Positions 1 to 4,532 of a stretch of 4,532 bases of DNA are shown here, piece by piece (within the stretch, counting starts at the first letter, position 1; each line of letters opens with the position of its first letter). The stretch lies in assembly GCA_000004985.1 (NCBI GenBank), contig GG739183.1, one strand, 5' to 3'. The position numbers and the translations under genes were made by a program. The notes under the pieces were generated by a model, which was not told where the DNA came from, did not search any database, and saw only the letters and a list, made by a program, of their open reading frames with translations. The stretch is from Naegleria gruberi. Taxonomy: Eukaryota.

Positions 1-20
1 CTAATGTGAAGAAATTATGA

Positions 21-1267
21 ATATTAAAATTAAATAATTGTTATGAATTATTTTTAAATAACACTATTGAAAATAATGAAATAAATATAAATGAAAATCT
101 TAATATTTTAAATAATAATAATATAGAAATTAATAATAATAATTTAATAATTCATTCATTAAATAATTCTATAAAAAAAGAAGAATTATTAATAGAAAGA
201 ATTAAAAATTTAGAATTTCAAATTCAAGAATTAAATTTAAAATTAGAAGAAAAAGAAATTGAAAATTTTTATTTAACAAATCCAGAATTATTACCAAATA
301 TTAATATATCTAAAAATAGTAATAGTGGAAATGAATTTAAATTATTATCATCATTTAATTTATCTAATAATAATACTTCCAATTCTAGTAATATAAAAAT
401 AATATCATATAAAGATATAAAAATAGATAATAATATACCAACTATAAAAGGAGGATTATTTACAATTAATTTTGGAATTTTAAAAAATAAAGAATTTGAT
501 GAAATTAAAATAGCAATAAAATCAATTCAACTTGAATATAAAAATGATTTAGAAAAAATGATTAAAAAATTAAATTTAGATTTTTTATATAATTTATCAC
601 ATCCAGTTATAGAAAGAGTATATGGTATTACTAAAATAGGAAAGGAATTTAATATAATAGCAGAATCATGTCAAGGTATTATTTTATCACAATTATTATT
701 AAATAGAAATATTAAATTAAATTTACAAATGCAAATTAATTATTCATTTCAATTATCAAGTGTTTTTTTATATATTTTTGAACAAAATAGGACATGTAAT
801 TCAATTTCTATAAATAATATTTTAATTTTAAATNNNNNNNNNNNNNNNNNNNNNNNNNNNNNNNNNNNNNNNNNNNNNNNNNNTTAAAAATATTAACAAT
901 ATATACAATGCATGAATTTAAAAATATTAAAGAAAAGAAATTAGCATGTTGTAAAATATTAAAAAATTTAAGTTCAATTTGTTTTTGTATTTTAACAAGA
1001 GAATCATCTGAAAGATTAAATATACATTTTAATCAAGAAGAATTTTCACCAAATTATGAAAATTTAATTGATAAATATTTTAATTATACACCTACTAATA
1101 AGGATAAAGAATTAATAATTGAATATTTAAATATTATTAAATCATGTTTAAAATATTCTAAATATTTATGTAATAATTTAAATGATCAGGAAAATGATTT
1201 ATCAAATTATTATTTAAGAAAAATACTTTATCGTTGGAGTAAATTAAAAGATTATTCTAATTTATAA
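21..1267 (+). CDS. Partial gene, 5' end unresolved. N/I-rich low-complexity and coiled-coil-like N-terminal region (ELLIERIKNLEFQIQELNLKLEEKEIENF), then a protein-kinase-like domain from about 402 with degenerate catalytic motifs. Predicted TKL-like pseudokinase. The coding sequence is interrupted by the assembly gap 834-883 and resumes in a different frame to the stop at 1265-1267.
   Basis: Frame 0 is stop-free from 21 to the gap at 834. The ORF track shows only the part from the first in-frame ATG at 558. By eye the translation aligns to the kinase N-lobe and catalytic loop. TIKGGLFTINFGIL matches the glycine loop. IAIK (K at 519-521) matches the VAIK lysine. LSHPVIERVYGIT matches the hxHPNIVxLxG motif. 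NIIAESCQGIILSQLL matches the hinge (VTEYMxxGSLxDLL). TCNSISINNILIL (795-833) matches IHRDLKSxNLLL, with HRD replaced by CNS. After the gap, frame 2 is open from 884 with no ATG needed. It reads YTMHEF...SSICFCILTRE, which resembles the APE motif and the alphaF helix (DVYSFGxVLWELLT) of a degenerate kinase C-lobe. The gap length is arbitrary, so the frame change across it is uninformative. Confidence 0.6.
834..883. other. Assembly gap of 50 N inside the kinase-like domain of gene 1. Its true length is unknown. It probably hides subdomain VII (DFG) and the activation segment.
   Basis: Run of n characters. A 50-nt run is a conventional placeholder length. Confidence 0.95.
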
Positions 1268-1381
1268 ATATTATTATTGATAATGTTAATTATAAATATT
1301 AATAATAATTGATATAATATTATTACTTCTTGGTGTATCAACATTGTGAGTTAGGTTTGGAAGAAGTGAAAGTGTATTCAA

Positions 1382-1395
1382 ATGAATGATTCATA
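1382..1395. promoter_or_regulatory. Palindromic motif ATGAATGATTCATA, copy 1. ATGAAT and ATTCAT are exact inverted repeats. A further ATTCA half-site lies at 1377-1381. Candidate transcription-factor binding site in the gene 1-gene 2 intergenic region.
   Basis: Read directly from the sequence. A second copy with one mismatch lies 53 bp downstream (1435-1448). Both sit in an unusually GC-enriched island (about 1321-1450) 150-220 bp upstream of the gene 2 ATG. Confidence 0.35.
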
Positions 1396-1434
1396 TTTCT
1401 TCCTTTTACAATATTACATAGTAGTAGTAGTACT

Positions 1435-1448
1435 ATGAATGGTTCATA
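1435..1448. promoter_or_regulatory. Palindromic motif ATGAATGGTTCATA, copy 2. It matches copy 1 at 13 of 14 positions.
   Basis: Read directly from the sequence. An adjacent (GTA)4 microsatellite lies at 1421-1432. Confidence 0.35.
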
Positions 1449-1599
1449 ATTTAATAAAAATCAATATACCTATTCCTTAATAATATTAATATTATTTGTA
1501 AAGAGTTGGGTGATTAACAATTTGATCTTTCTCTGTAAAAATGAAAAGGAATTTCAAGTTATTTTTAAATTGTAAGGTAAAAAATCATTATTTAAAAAA

Positions 1600-1847
1600 A
1601 TGTCAACAACAACTACACCACCAACATCAACAGATCAGGAAAATACTTTACCAATTGCTTCATCATCTGGTGATTCCACTACTACTACAACAACAATAAC
1701 TCCATCATCACCATCTAATACTATAACAACAACACCATCATCTCCTGTTCTTCAACAAGAAGCCTCAACAACAACAAATGAACCTAAATTTGACTTTGAA
1801 ATTTCCCATAACAAATCTGTATATAATATTACAATGAGTGGTGATCA
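1600..1847 (+). CDS. 5' portion of a gene encoding a Thr/Ser/Pro-rich low-complexity protein (MSTTTTPPTSTDQENTLPIASSSGDSTTTTTTITPSSPSNTITTTPSSPVLQQEASTTTNEPKFDFEISHNKSVYNITMSGD...). It continues into the 733-nt assembly gap. Function unknown. It could be mucin-like and O-glycosylated, or could carry an N-terminal disordered region.
   Basis: The ATG at 1600 sits in the classic A-run start context (tttaaaaaaATG). Codon usage matches the other genes in the window. The frame is open to the gap edge. The ORF-track extension beyond the gap (to 2607) is an artefact of the arbitrary gap length. Confidence 0.55.
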
Positions 1848-2580
1848 NNNNNNNNNNNNNNNNNNNNNNNNNNNNNNNNNNNNNNNNNNNNNNNNNNNNN
1901 NNNNNNNNNNNNNNNNNNNNNNNNNNNNNNNNNNNNNNNNNNNNNNNNNNNNNNNNNNNNNNNNNNNNNNNNNNNNNNNNNNNNNNNNNNNNNNNNNNNN
2001 NNNNNNNNNNNNNNNNNNNNNNNNNNNNNNNNNNNNNNNNNNNNNNNNNNNNNNNNNNNNNNNNNNNNNNNNNNNNNNNNNNNNNNNNNNNNNNNNNNNN
2101 NNNNNNNNNNNNNNNNNNNNNNNNNNNNNNNNNNNNNNNNNNNNNNNNNNNNNNNNNNNNNNNNNNNNNNNNNNNNNNNNNNNNNNNNNNNNNNNNNNNN
2201 NNNNNNNNNNNNNNNNNNNNNNNNNNNNNNNNNNNNNNNNNNNNNNNNNNNNNNNNNNNNNNNNNNNNNNNNNNNNNNNNNNNNNNNNNNNNNNNNNNNN
2301 NNNNNNNNNNNNNNNNNNNNNNNNNNNNNNNNNNNNNNNNNNNNNNNNNNNNNNNNNNNNNNNNNNNNNNNNNNNNNNNNNNNNNNNNNNNNNNNNNNNN
2401 NNNNNNNNNNNNNNNNNNNNNNNNNNNNNNNNNNNNNNNNNNNNNNNNNNNNNNNNNNNNNNNNNNNNNNNNNNNNNNNNNNNNNNNNNNNNNNNNNNNN
2501 NNNNNNNNNNNNNNNNNNNNNNNNNNNNNNNNNNNNNNNNNNNNNNNNNNNNNNNNNNNNNNNNNNNNNNNNNNNNNNNN
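1848..2580. other. Assembly gap of 733 N. It swallows most of gene 2 and that gene's 3' end.
   Basis: Run of n characters. The flanking coding sequence is an S/T-rich simple repeat, a sequence type that often breaks assemblies. Confidence 0.95.
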
Positions 2581-2832
2581 ATAAATTATTATTTATTATT
2601 ATTATAATAGAATAAGTTGTTGTAAAATGTAATAGTATTGGTTCTAGAGAGGTTGTAATAATAAATAGTATTAATCAGGTTGAAATTGTTTTATTTGGAT
2701 TGATAATAGTTTCAGAACTGTAATACAAAATTACTTTTTAGTTTAGAGCGACATTTTGTTGATTCTCCAATCAAAGAAAAATAAACTACAAACACACTCT
2801 CTCACTTGAATCTCTGCATCCTCTTGAGAGAA

Positions 2833-2865
2833 CATCATCATCATCATCAACTACAACTACAACAA
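2833..2865. repeat. (CAT)5 followed by (CAACTA)2 microsatellite. It lies inside a CA/CT-rich, relatively GC-rich island (about 2763-2870) just upstream of the gene 3 TATA box.
   Basis: Read directly: catcatcatcatcat caactacaactacaaca. Frame 0 is open from 2763 to the TAA at 2868-2870, and the stretch reads ...ERTSSSSSTTTTTI*. That could instead be a short coding tail (see findings). Confidence 0.6.
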
Positions 2866-2873
2866 TATAAATA
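2866..2873 (+). promoter_or_regulatory. Candidate TATA box TATAAATA, 63 bp upstream of the gene 3 ATG.
   Basis: Exact TATAAA(T)A consensus. The spacing would allow a transcription start about 30 bp downstream and a short 5' UTR. No oligo-dT stretch follows it, which is atypical for Dictyostelium promoters, so confidence is modest. Confidence 0.35.
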
Positions 2874-2935
2874 GTAATAGTAGTAGATAGTATTCCGCAT
2901 CAAATTAGTCTTGTAATAATTGTAAATATATAACA

Positions 2936-4532
2936 ATGATAGAATCATTAGATTCACAATCGTATGATTCTAAACAGTCACCAACAAATCATCATCAACA
3001 TTATAATACTCATAATAATAATAATAATATATTAAATAATAATAATCAACAACAACAAGAACATTCTGAAATATTATCATCATTAGCACAAGAACAACAA
3101 GAACAACAAGTTGATGAAATACAAGATAAATCAATAGCAACTAATGGATCTAATTTAATATCATCTTCAACAAATAGTTTACATTCAATTTGGAATGAAA
3201 AGTCTAAATTTCAAAAATTAAAATATTATTTAAAAATACCATTATTAAAATCATCTAAATGTATTACTATTATGAATGTTTTATTAATTTTATTTATTTT
3301 ACAAGGTTTATTTGGTTTATTTTCATGTATGTTTTTTTAAATATTTATAATTTTAATAATAATTTTAATAATATTTTAATAATTTTAATAATAATTTAAT
3401 TAAATTTAAAAAGCATTTATATTATTATATACAACAGGTGATAATTTAATAGTACAATCAAGAAGTAATCAAAAATTACAAATGAAATCAGTAATTGATT
3501 ATGAAATTGGTGAAATGGTTAAAAGTACAACATTAATAATGAATCAATTATTATATCAAATTAAAAGTGGTGGACCATTTGATTTAAATAATAATATAAC
3601 ATGGTTTAGAATATTTTATTATTTAAAAAGATTATATGTACATAAATCACCTTTGAAAATGTTATATTTTGGTAGATTTGATCAGAGTTTTATTGGTGTT
3701 GAAGTTGATTTTGTTAGAGTACTTTTAAAAGCATCAACATTTACAAATTTAGAAAGAATGGGAACTGATTATCATTTAATTTCAGATCCAAATTTAATTT
3801 ATTCACCTTCCAATATCATTGAATCTAAGAATTGGACATTAGAAGTAACTAATAGAGCATGGTATTCAATATTTACAAAATATCAAACATCTAACAAGAC
3901 ATTATCAAATGTTAAATGGAGTCCACTATTTTCAAGTGTTAGTGGATTACCATCTATTACATTATCAATGCCAATCTATATTAATATACCAACTAGATAT
4001 TTATCTACCACTTATTCACAAAATAGAATTATACCCTATTTTCAATCAACTTTATCAAATAATATTACAACATTACCAAATATAAATTCATCTTCATTAA
4101 TAACATTAAATAGATATTTAAATATAAAAGAATCTATTTTAACAAGTGGAAATTCAAATGATTTATCAGATCCAATTATTAAAGAATTATATAATAAAAT
4201 AGATGTATCTGATTATTTATATGGAACAATTGGTATACAATTATCATTGGATGAATTAGCAAGTAGATTAAATCAATCAACAATTGAAGCAGGTGTTTCT
4301 TTAACTTTAATTATAAATTCTAATGCTGATATTGTTGCATGTACTGATTTATTTTATAATTTACAATATAATTCTAAATTTACAAATCAATCTAATTTAT
4401 CTAATTTTATTATACATTCTATTTTAAATCATTCCATTTTAAATTATGATTTTTTAAATAAAATTGAAACTTATAATAATAATAATGGAAATACAAATAC
4501 AAATAATGGAAATACAAATACAAATACAAATG
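2936..4532 (+). CDS. Two-exon gene, 3'-partial. Exon 1 is 2936..3326 and exon 2 is 3438..>4532. Predicted single-pass (type II-like) membrane glycoprotein of unknown family. It has an N/Q-rich N-terminal region, a hydrophobic segment CITIMNVLLILFILQGLFGLFSC (about 3260-3326), a large domain rich in N-x-S/T sequons, and a C-terminal N/G/T tandem repeat.
   Basis: Exon 1 is in the ORF track (2936..3340). It begins at ATG in an A-rich context (aacaATG). The hydrophobic segment ends exactly where GTATGT begins (3327-3332). The stretch 3341-3430 is about 95% AT with tandem repeats and is intron-like. An AG acceptor lies at 3436-3437. The intron is 111 nt, a multiple of 3, so frame 2 continues. I translated exon 2 codon by codon from 3438 to 4532 and found no stop (CDNLIVQSRSNQKLQMKSVIDYEIGEMVKSTTLIMNQLLYQIKSGGPFDLNNNITWFRIFYYLKRLYVHKSPLKMLYFGRFDQSFIGVEVDFVRVLLKASTFTNLERMGTDYHLISDPNLIYSPSNIIESKNWTLEVTNRAWYSIF...NGNTNTNTN). 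The first in-frame ATG of that open frame is not until 3482, with the frame open upstream of it. This favours splicing over an independent gene. Confidence 0.6.
3327..3437 (+). other. Predicted spliceosomal intron of gene 3. The GTATGT donor is at 3327. The AG acceptor is at 3436-3437. An alternative acceptor ttaatAG at 3451-3452 gives a 126-nt intron that is also frame-preserving.
   Basis: Canonical dictyostelid donor hexamer, extreme AT content, and a length typical of short amoebozoan introns. Both candidate acceptors keep the downstream frame open. Confidence 0.5.
3341..3416. repeat. Tandem repeat of a roughly 13-nt AT-only unit (aattttaataata, about 4-5 copies), intronic.
   Basis: Read directly: ataattttaataataattttaataatattttaataattttaataataatttaat. 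Confidence 0.6.
4475..4532 (+). repeat. In-frame tandem coding repeat (aataatggaaatacaaataca x2 plus a partial copy). It encodes NNNNGNTNTNNGNTNTNTN and runs off the window end.
   Basis: Direct repeat read from the sequence. It is a typical dictyostelid coding microsatellite. Confidence 0.7.

What the first reader, a model, noticed from the sequence alone, without database searches (positions are those of the whole stretch)
3327..4532. Unlisted second exon: a 111-nt frame-preserving intron joins a transmembrane-anchor exon to a roughly 365-codon sequon-rich domain
The ORF track ends gene 3 at the TAA at 3338-3340. That stop lies inside a sequence beginning GTATGT (3327) immediately after the hydrophobic segment. 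Ninety nucleotides of about 95% AT tandem repeat follow, and then an AG at 3436-3437. From 3438 the same frame is open for 1095 nt to the window edge, and no ATG is needed to enter it. The intron length of 111 is a multiple of 3, so the intron stop codon is the only thing hiding the continuity. Exon 2 is rich in N-x-S/T sequons: NIT at the NNNITW run, NWT, NKT, NIT, NSS, NQS twice, and NHS. A domain like that must enter the secretory pathway. Exon 2 alone has no signal peptide, and exon 1 supplies a signal-anchor-like TM segment. Together they predict a type II membrane glycoprotein of unrecognised family.
Basis: partly seen in the sequence, partly recalled or inferred. Interest (0 to 1): 0.55.

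Follow-up and report, generated by a model that had tools for sequence, protein, structure and literature searches.

The report
Intron in Naegleria Cache-sensor receptor gene
The flagged region is an ordinary short intron (87 bases, not the 111 proposed) inside a Naegleria gene for a membrane receptor whose outside part is a bacterial-style "double Cache" sensor domain and whose relatives all carry a cyclase domain inside the cell; it is a new member of a known kind of protein, not an unrecognised glycoprotein family.

The parts
2936..3326 (+). Exon 1. It holds the ATG start, a ~109-residue low-complexity (N/Q/S-rich) cytoplasmic tail, a K-rich stretch, and the first 21 residues of TM1 (...CITIMNVLLILFILQGLFGLFS). 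It ends with the first base of codon 131, so the intron is phase 1.
   Evidence: ORF list. In-frame stops lie just upstream of the ATG. TM1 is near-identical to N. fowleri P0013, which reads CITIMNVVLMLFILQGLFGLFS. Kyte-Doolittle peak 2.4.
3327..3413 (+). Spliceosomal intron of 87 nt, phase 1, from donor GTATGT to acceptor ...TTTAAAAAG. It contains 8 in-frame stops, including the TAA at 3338-3340 that ended the ORF call. Its core is an AT-only period-20/12 tandem repeat.
   Evidence: N. fowleri orthologue P0013 (L001) and paralogue P0014 (L003) have introns of 96 and 165 nt at exactly the same codon and phase. The deposited model P0001 uses this junction.
3414..3437 (+). They are coding: CA completes the Ser codon (T|CA), followed by FILLYTT and the first base of the Gly codon. 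This is the C-terminal third of TM1.
   Evidence: SFILLYT(T/S)G is nearly invariant in all relatives. Window versus the N. fowleri gene over codons FILLYTTG: 6 synonymous and 0 non-synonymous differences. Willaertia P0025 and N. fowleri P0021 encode this stretch with no intron at all.
3263..3433 (+). TM1 (residues 110-137, ITIMNVLLILFILQGLFGLFSSFILLYT, 28 aa), split by the intron into 3263-3326 and 3414-3433.
   Evidence: In the model of the orthologue, the helix continues directly into the stalk helix of the sensor.
3434..4474 (+). Extracellular sensor domain with the dCache (double PDC) fold. The window holds the stalk helix, the whole membrane-distal module (motifs YFGRFD, R-A-W-Y, WSPLF, SITLSMPIY, LYGTIGIQL) and the first half of the membrane-proximal module. 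A lineage-specific insertion of roughly 75 residues lies at about 3985-4210.
4475..4532 (+). Low-complexity N/G/T run (NNNNGNTNTNNGNTNTNTN) from a 21-nt tandem repeat. The ORF runs off the contig here. The last three strands of the proximal module, TM2, the linker and the cyclase-homology domain expected from relatives are not in the window.
   Evidence: TRF 4475-4526, period 21. Alignments A1 and A2.

Best explanation
Positions 2936-4532 (+) are the 5' part, 503 codons, of one Naegleria gene for a two-pass receptor of the 'dCache sensor plus class III cyclase-homology domain' type.

Shown:
- Exon 1 (2936-3326) and exon 2 (3414 onward) are joined by removing an 87-nt phase-1 GT-AG intron (3327-3413).
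- The junction codon is T|CA = Ser, giving ...LFGLFS-S-FILLYTTGDN....
- TM1 spans the junction.
- The downstream ~350 residues are homologous to the extracellular domains of 11 heterolobosean proteins. The orthologue's domain is confidently predicted to have the double-Cache fold.

Inferred from relatives, because it lies off the contig:
- The protein continues with the rest of the proximal Cache module, TM2, a helical linker and a cytoplasmic PF00211 domain.

Inferred mechanism, by analogy with bacterial dCache receptors:
- The N-terminus is cytoplasmic.
- A small-molecule ligand binds the membrane-distal module outside the cell.
- The change passes along the stalk helices and TM2 to a dimeric cyclase-homology domain, altering cAMP output.
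- The nearest orthologue lacks two of the six canonical catalytic residues. The output may therefore need a catalytically competent partner, or may not be enzymatic at all.
For: Splice site:
- The first AG after the donor is at 3412-3413.
- Only this acceptor reproduces the family-wide motif LFGL.SSFILLYT.G.
- N. fowleri P0013 and P0014 have annotated introns at the identical codon and phase, with exon 2 beginning CATT in all three.
- Over the disputed 24 nt there are 6 synonymous and 0 non-synonymous changes.
- The intron-less Willaertia and P0021 genes encode the stretch contiguously.

Architecture:
- All 8 relatives that include the TM1 region have exactly two TM segments about 370 residues apart (P0004, an N-terminally truncated call, shows TM2 only).
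- All ten family members scanned in full (nine, P0004) reach the PF00211 gathering score.

Fold:
- AF2 with an 11-sequence alignment gives pLDDT 82.5 and pTM 0.76.
- The Foldseek top 50 are all Cache domains: the first 42 are dCache ligand-binding domains, and all but two of the rest are alpha-2-delta Cache domains. E reaches 6e-9 at probability 1.0.

Taxon:
- All relatives are Naegleria or Willaertia.
- The window matches the contig length of the N. gruberi protein P0001.

Literature:
- Naegleria has at least 81 membrane cyclases (PMC9928731).
- A Cache-containing bacterial-type adenylate cyclase is already noted in Naegleria (PMC4822843).
Against: - No transcript data could be consulted, so the splice junction rests on comparative evidence.
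- The window's own TM2 and cyclase domain are not in the sequence.
- Pfam dCache_1 is not reached by any member. The best is P0026 at 18 bits against a cut-off of 45, and the window's exon 2 gives no hit.
- The structure model is of the N. fowleri orthologue (40% identical), not of the window protein. The window protein folded alone gave pLDDT 35.
- Catalytic residues in the closest relatives are degenerate, so 'cyclase' may not describe the real output.
Confidence: 0.88

Rival explanations
1. One reading: the intron is 3327-3437 (111 nt), the junction codon is T|GT = Cys, and the product is a single-pass type II membrane glycoprotein of an unrecognised family.
For: GT...AG with a good YAG|G acceptor. 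The reading is in frame, and the shortened TM (ITIMNVLLILFILQGLFGLFSC) would still be long enough.
Against: - It deletes SFILLYTT, which is nearly invariant across the family and under purifying selection.
- An earlier AG exists.
- Orthologous introns end before CATTTAT.
- Relatives have a second TM and a cyclase domain.
- Sequons are not enriched.
- The fold is dCache.
Confidence: 0.05
2. Two separate genes: a 134-codon gene ending at the TAA 3338-3340, and an independent gene starting at the ATG at 3482 (or another start downstream).
For: A purely mechanical ORF reading gives this. Automated calls for N. fowleri (P0002, P0003) likewise start just upstream of FILLY, at an ATG inside the intron.
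Against: - Conserved coding sequence (FILLYTTGDNLIVQSRSNQKLQ) lies upstream of ATG 3482, with no ATG of its own.
- TM1 in exon 1 is near-identical to the orthologue.
- In intron-less relatives, TM1 and the sensor form one uninterrupted ORF.
- A dCache ectodomain without TM1 or a signal peptide could not be exported.
Confidence: 0.03
3. No intron: the stops are read through under a variant genetic code (TAA/TAG = Gln, as in ciliates), or the contig comes from a different AT-rich organism, such as a dictyostelid contaminant.
For: The window is 19.6% GC with poly-N, poly-Q and poly-T tracts. That is far below the 35% average of N. gruberi (PMC9928731). Read through, the segment would be hydrophobic (IFIILIIILIIF).
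Against: - There are 8 stops in 29 codons of the interval, against 0 in 503 exon codons.
- Gln is encoded by CAA or CAG 28 times and never by TAA or TAG.
- Relatives have no residues corresponding to the interval.
- All homologues are heterolobosean and none is amoebozoan or ciliate.
Confidence: 0.01
4. A decaying pseudogene or assembly artefact on a tiny gap-ridden scaffold, with no functional product.
For: This is a 4.5-kb unplaced scaffold with two N gaps and atypical composition. The gene is truncated by the contig end.
Against: A 503-codon frame stays intact in roughly 79% AT coding sequence, where shuffles give at most 106 open codons. Conserved motifs are retained along the whole domain. 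Splice signals are intact.
Confidence: 0.04

Closest known systems
N. fowleri FDP41_012757 (KAF0980969.1 / XP_044565682.1, 'guanylate cyclase domain-containing protein', P0013), with paralogues FDP41_005817 and FDP41_000980 and Willaertia magna ABK040_002964 / _007643 / _016445
   Same: - TM1 is near-identical, and the intron sits at the same codon and phase (P0013, P0014).
- 40-43% identity through the sensor domain.
- The same conserved motifs are present.
   Different: - The window has a ~75-residue insertion in the sensor, an N/T-rich tail and much lower GC (19.6% versus 27-37% for the relatives' genes).
- Its TM2 and cyclase part are not available.
- The relatives are uncharacterised hypothetical proteins.
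Bacterial dCache_1 ligand-binding domains of chemoreceptors, sensor kinases and diguanylate cyclases (PctD 7PRQ, Tlp3 4XMR, TlpQ 6FU4, A. caviae DGC 7K5N, CqsR 9NIA)
   Same: - A long stalk helix continuous with TM1.
- Two stacked alpha/beta PDC modules.
- A return helix running into TM2.
   Different: - Sequence identity is only 8-18%.
- Pfam dCache_1 is not reached.
- The domain is about 100 residues larger, with eukaryote-style low-complexity insertions.
- The ligand is unknown, and the pocket residues were not compared.
Cache-containing class III adenylate cyclases: M. tuberculosis Rv2435c and the single 'bacterial-type adenylate cyclase' with a Cache domain reported in Naegleria (Upadhyay et al. 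2016, PMC4822843)
   Same: The logic is the same: TM, extracellular Cache, TM, cytoplasmic cyclase-homology domain. The cyclase domains of the relatives are closest to bacterial class III enzymes (P. aeruginosa CyaB 3R5G, E 7e-30).
   Different: - That paper counted one Cache protein in Naegleria. This family has several paralogues per species whose Cache domains escape the HMMs.
- I could not establish whether the paper's protein is one of them.
- Most Naegleria members lack canonical catalytic residues.
Receptor-type adenylate cyclases of other protists: Dictyostelium ACG and trypanosomatid receptor ACs. This comparison rests on my own knowledge and was not tested here.
   Same: An extracellular sensor is coupled through a TM helix to a single cytoplasmic class III catalytic domain that must dimerise.
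   Different: These proteins use other sensor folds (CHASE-type in ACG, periplasmic-binding-protein-like in trypanosomes). No sequence similarity to them was detected in any search here.

Membership tests
Spliceosomal GT-AG intron | 5' GT with an extended consensus (GTAWGT) and a 3' AG, the first AG downstream of the branch region | tested here: met
   GTATGT lies at 3327-3332. The AG at 3412-3413 is the first AG after the donor.
Spliceosomal GT-AG intron | The interval is non-coding: it holds stops, its composition differs from the exons, and it is not conserved at protein level | tested here: met
   8 in-frame stops against 0 in the exons. AT is about 94-98% in the interval against 79% in the exons. 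Relatives have no matching residues.
Spliceosomal GT-AG intron | Position and phase shared with orthologous genes | tested here: met
   N. fowleri P0013 (96 nt) and P0014 (165 nt) carry an intron at the same codon, phase 1. It is absent in the more distant P0021 and in Willaertia P0025.
Spliceosomal GT-AG intron | Spliced transcript observed | not testable with these tools
   No RNA-seq or EST resource is available. The deposited model P0001 uses the junction, but it is an automated prediction.
dCache (double Cache / tandem PDC) extracellular sensor domain | Long N-terminal helix followed by two alpha/beta PDC modules, with structural similarity to solved dCache domains | tested here: met
dCache (double Cache / tandem PDC) extracellular sensor domain | Extracytoplasmic location between two TM helices | tested here: inconclusive
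   TM1 is present in the window, with K/R-rich N-flank. TM2 is seen in all 8 relatives that include TM1 (P0004, truncated at its N-terminus, shows TM2 only), but it lies beyond the window end.
dCache (double Cache / tandem PDC) extracellular sensor domain | Match to Pfam dCache_1 (PF02743) at the gathering score | tested here: not met
   The best match is P0026, at E 0.0021 and 18 bits against a cut-off of 45. The window's exon 2 gives no hit. It therefore belongs to the fold or superfamily, not to the Pfam family as currently modelled.
dCache (double Cache / tandem PDC) extracellular sensor domain | Ligand-binding pocket residues in the distal module, such as the amino-acid-sensor motif | not tested
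   R-(P/A)-W-Y is conserved. No residue-level alignment to a solved dCache domain could be obtained, because the profile search of PDB sequences found nothing relevant.
Class III nucleotidyl cyclase (receptor type) | PF00211 catalytic domain in the same polypeptide, C-terminal to TM2 | not testable with these tools
   The window ends at 4532, before this region. All ten family members scanned in full carry PF00211 above its cut-off (nine, P0004).
Class III nucleotidyl cyclase (receptor type) | The canonical catalytic hexad: two metal-binding Asp, substrate Lys and Thr/Asp, and transition-state Asn and Arg | tested here: not met
   This was tested on relatives only. The closest orthologue P0013 reads D-K-N-T-N-G. 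Only Willaertia P0025 and P0009 read D-K-D-T-N-R. The window's own domain is unknown.
   The N-in anchor is met. However, homologues have a second TM and a cytoplasmic C-terminal domain.
   9 observed against 6.7 +/- 2.2 expected, P = 0.21. The density is lower than in the neighbouring kinase-like gene.

The most novel reading that the evidence does not exclude
Naegleria and Willaertia carry a lineage-specific, multi-paralogue family of highly divergent dCache receptors that current HMMs miss. The literature counts one Cache protein in Naegleria. In the Naegleria branch, the attached cyclase-homology domains have lost canonical catalytic residues. These proteins would then signal as obligate heterodimers with a competent cyclase, or as non-enzymatic pseudo-cyclase receptors. 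That would be a eukaryotic reuse of a bacterial sensor module with a rewired output.
Probability: 0.3. Interest if true: 0.45.

Novelty: new member of a known kind. Interest (0 to 1): 0.22.

Why it matters
Practical value:
- The result corrects a gene model. The deposited N. gruberi protein for this contig is a chimera of two genes that skips most of TM1. Prokaryote-style ORF calls split the gene in two.
- The corrected 5' structure is 2936-3326 joined to 3414 onward. It gives a sensible receptor with an intact TM1 and a recognisable sensor fold.

Biological value:
- The result adds a set of Cache-fold sensors to a free-living amoeba whose relative N. fowleri is a lethal pathogen. Naegleria is known for a very large cyclase repertoire, but the ligands of these receptors are unknown.
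- The apparent loss of catalytic residues in the Naegleria members is a testable lead about how these receptors signal.

None of this is surprising to a specialist.

Tried and rejected
- Dictyostelid-contaminant idea. It was prompted by 80% AT and poly-N/Q tracts. It is rejected because every homologue is heterolobosean.
- Ciliate-type stop-codon reassignment. Rejected on codon counts.
- phmmer and a profile search against PDB sequences: nothing relevant.
- Word-indexed homologue searches: they found only the window's own deposited model, and with the profile only two relatives. The exhaustive HMMER scan was what found the family.
- Single-sequence AlphaFold of exon 2: useless at pLDDT 35.
I therefore modelled the complete domain of the orthologue instead of the truncated window protein.
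- The AFDB fold library was not available.
- DNA for the N. gruberi paralogues P0010, P0012 and P0026, and for P0001, is not on record. Same-species splice-site and composition comparisons could not be made.
- The Cache paper's Fig 7 accession for the Naegleria protein is not in the held text.

Full report
**What is in the sequence**

The window is 4532 bases, 19.6% GC outside two runs of N (834-883 and 1848-2580). An ATG-initiated ORF runs from 2936 to the TAA at 3338-3340.

- GTATGT lies at 3327-3332.
- The TAA lies 11 nt into that interval.
- 3341-3430 is 97.8% AT, with period-12 and period-20 tandem repeats.
- An AG lies at 3436-3437.
- The frame of exon 1 reopens and stays open to the last base.

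That open frame is far beyond chance. It spans 374 codons, whereas shuffles of the same bases give a mean longest open run of 40 and a maximum of 106. The interval 3327-3413 has 8 in-frame stops, and the 503 spliced codons have none.

Listing every AG after the donor shows three in-frame acceptors: 3412-3413, 3436-3437 and 3451-3452. They give introns of 87, 111 and 126 nt.

The sequon argument also fails. There are nine N-x-S/T in 345 residues, which is what the N/S/T-rich composition gives (6.7 ± 2.2 in shuffles, P = 0.21). The kinase-like gene upstream has a higher density.

**Finding relatives**

Pfam, PDB-sequence and word-indexed searches returned nothing except a 354-residue 'predicted protein [Naegleria gruberi]', P0001, on a contig of exactly 4532 bases. 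That contig is this window.

Mapping P0001 back shows it is an automated chimera. It has these pieces:
- the first exon of the upstream S/T-rich gene (1600-1837), joined across the 733-N gap;
- 2945-3181;
- a mini-exon encoding FGLFS;
- 3414-3937;
- a frame-shifted tail.

It is not independent evidence, but it does use the 3326|3414 junction.

An exhaustive HMMER scan of 1.84 billion representatives with exon 2 found 11 true relatives (E from 3.8e-45 to 3e-6). All are from Naegleria fowleri, N. gruberi or Willaertia magna, apart from two unnamed metagenome sequences: P0004, and P0005, whose cluster includes a named N. fowleri protein. This refutes my first impression that the contig might be a dictyostelid contaminant.

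**Which acceptor is used**

The relatives read ...ILQGLFGL(F/S)SSFILLYT(T/S)GD... across the end of TM1.

Splicing 3326|3414 gives ...CITIMNVLLILFILQGLFGLFSSFILLYTTGDNLIV.... N. fowleri P0013 reads ...CITIMNVVLMLFILQGLFGLFSSFILLYTTGDNIV....

The comparative evidence is as follows:
- In the N. fowleri genome, the annotated gene for P0013 has a 96-nt GTAAGT...TTTCAG intron. It interrupts the same codon in the same phase (TCT T|gt...ag|CA TTT), and exon 2 starts CATTTAT in both species.
- The paralogue P0014 has a 165-nt intron at the same place.
- The more distant P0021 and Willaertia P0025 have no intron there and encode the stretch continuously. So it cannot be an artefact of gene models.
- Over the eight disputed codons, the window and the N. 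fowleri gene differ at six nucleotides, all synonymous.
- The AG at 3412-3413 is also the first AG after the donor.

I conclude that the intron is 3327-3413 (87 nt, phase 1). It would delete eight conserved TM residues.

**What the protein is**

All 8 relatives that include the TM1 region have two hydrophobic segments about 370 residues apart; P0004, an N-terminally truncated call, shows only TM2. All ten family members scanned in full have a PF00211 adenylate/guanylate cyclase domain after TM2, above the Pfam cut-off.

The region between the TMs aligns with the window's exon 2 along its whole length, apart from a window-specific insertion. The alignment ends about 100 residues before TM2 because the contig ends.

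Sequence profiles give only sub-threshold hints of Cache: dCache_1 at 18 bits against 45, and MCP-like_PDC_1.

Structure settles the question:
- An AlphaFold model of the complete orthologous domain, built with an 11-sequence alignment that includes the window, has mean pLDDT 82.5 and pTM 0.76. Its topology is stalk helix, PDC module, PDC module, then return helix into TM2.
- The Foldseek top 50 PDB hits are all Cache domains. The first 42 are double-Cache ligand-binding domains (Tlp3, TlpQ, TlpC, TlpA, PctB/C, CtaA, CqsR, DctB and others; E down to 6e-9, probability 1.0). All but two of the rest are alpha-2-delta Cache domains.

The window encodes model residues 1-288 of 381. That covers the stalk helix, the entire membrane-distal module and half of the proximal module.

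**Topology and mechanism**

The 20 residues before TM1 carry six K/R and no acidic residue. The 20 after it carry three K/R and one acidic residue. The N-terminus is therefore cytoplasmic and the sensor is outside. After TM2, the cyclase-homology domain would be cytoplasmic, where its nucleotide substrate is.

By analogy with bacterial dCache receptors, ligand binding in the distal module would be relayed through the stalk and TM2 to a dimeric output domain. This step is inference.

There is one caveat. I aligned the relatives' cyclase domains to P. aeruginosa CyaB (3R5G, E 7e-30). Only two Willaertia proteins keep the full D-K-D-T-N-R hexad. The window's closest orthologue reads D-K-N-T-N-G, and every Naegleria member lacks at least two positions. 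The real output may therefore be heterodimeric or non-catalytic. The window's own output domain is unknown.

**Comparison with what is known**

Cache-coupled class III cyclases are well known in bacteria. Upadhyay et al. [quoted passage not shown] Naegleria is known to encode at least 81 membrane cyclases (PMC9928731).

The window gene is thus a new member of a known kind. The modest additions are these:
- Several paralogues per species have Cache domains too divergent for the HMMs.
- An intron is conserved inside TM1.
- The catalytic sites appear degenerate.

**Verdict**

There is a real intron and a real continuation, but the acceptor is wrong and the sequons are not enriched.

A TM exon is indeed joined to an extracytoplasmic domain. 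The protein, however, is a dCache receptor of the cyclase family, not a type II glycoprotein of unknown family.

This is an ordinary eukaryotic gene structure hidden by a prokaryote-style ORF track. Interest is low to modest.

Noticed in passing
window 1-4532 (whole contig): The non-N sequence is 19.6% GC, far below the 35% reported for the N. gruberi genome (PMC9928731). It is also below the relatives' genes (27-37% GC). Unusually, the coding regions of gene 1 (about 15% GC) are more AT-rich than the intergenic spacers (20-25% GC). It is unexplained why this small unplaced scaffold is so atypical.
   Followed up: partly
window 1600-4158 (deposited model P0001): The public N. gruberi protein for this contig is a chimera. 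It joins exon 1 of the S/T-rich gene at 1600 across the 733-N gap to pieces of the receptor gene. It skips HSIW...ILQGL, which is most of TM1 and the K-rich flank. It ends in a frame-shifted 15-residue tail (4114-4158).
   Followed up: yes
relatives P0013, P0014, P0021, P0010, P0012, P0026, P0004, P0008 (cyclase domains): The canonical class III catalytic hexad (D-K-D-T/D-N-R) is intact only in Willaertia P0025 and P0009. All Naegleria members lack two or more positions. For example, the window's closest orthologue reads D-K-N-T-N-G. These may be pseudo-cyclases or obligate heterodimers.
   Followed up: partly
window 3-1267 (+), gap at 834-883: An upstream gene encodes a coiled-coil/N-rich region followed by a protein-kinase-like domain (PF07714, E 2.3e-9). 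It is interrupted by a 50-N gap, across which the reading frame changes from frame 3 to frame 2. It ends at the TAA 1265-1267.
   Followed up: partly
window 1600-1847 (+), running into the N gap 1848-2580: This is the start of a gene with a Thr/Ser/Pro-rich N-terminus (MSTTTTPPTSTDQ...). It has no Pfam match and is truncated by the 733-N gap. At 34% GC it is much less AT-rich than its neighbours.
   Followed up: no
L001 3401-3496 (N. fowleri intron); proteins P0002, P0003: The protein models P0002 (an NCBI N. fowleri annotation, KAF0980841.1) and P0003 (an ENA/Logan contig gene call) start at an ATG inside the orthologous intron. They read through the acceptor in frame (MLIQNPVIIS-AFILLY...) and so lose exon 1 and TM1.
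   Followed up: yes
alignment A1 columns ~222-232; window about 3961-3990: All nine relatives carry an N-x-S/T sequon within the few residues after the conserved IPIY motif (for example YVNET, YINST, YVNQT). The window has NIP there, which is not a sequon. So the one position where glycosylation looks conserved in the family is not a sequon in this protein.
   Followed up: no
window 3327-3413 versus L001 3401-3496 and L003 ~1832-1995: All three orthologous or paralogous introns at this site have lengths divisible by three (87, 96 and 165 nt). This may be coincidence, and I did not test it.
   Followed up: no
protein P0011 (4571 aa): The one non-heterolobosean HMMER hit (E 2.5e-6) is a huge, highly repetitive T/S/G-rich protein. 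It matches only query residues 145-225. I judged it a compositional match and did not pursue it.
   Followed up: no
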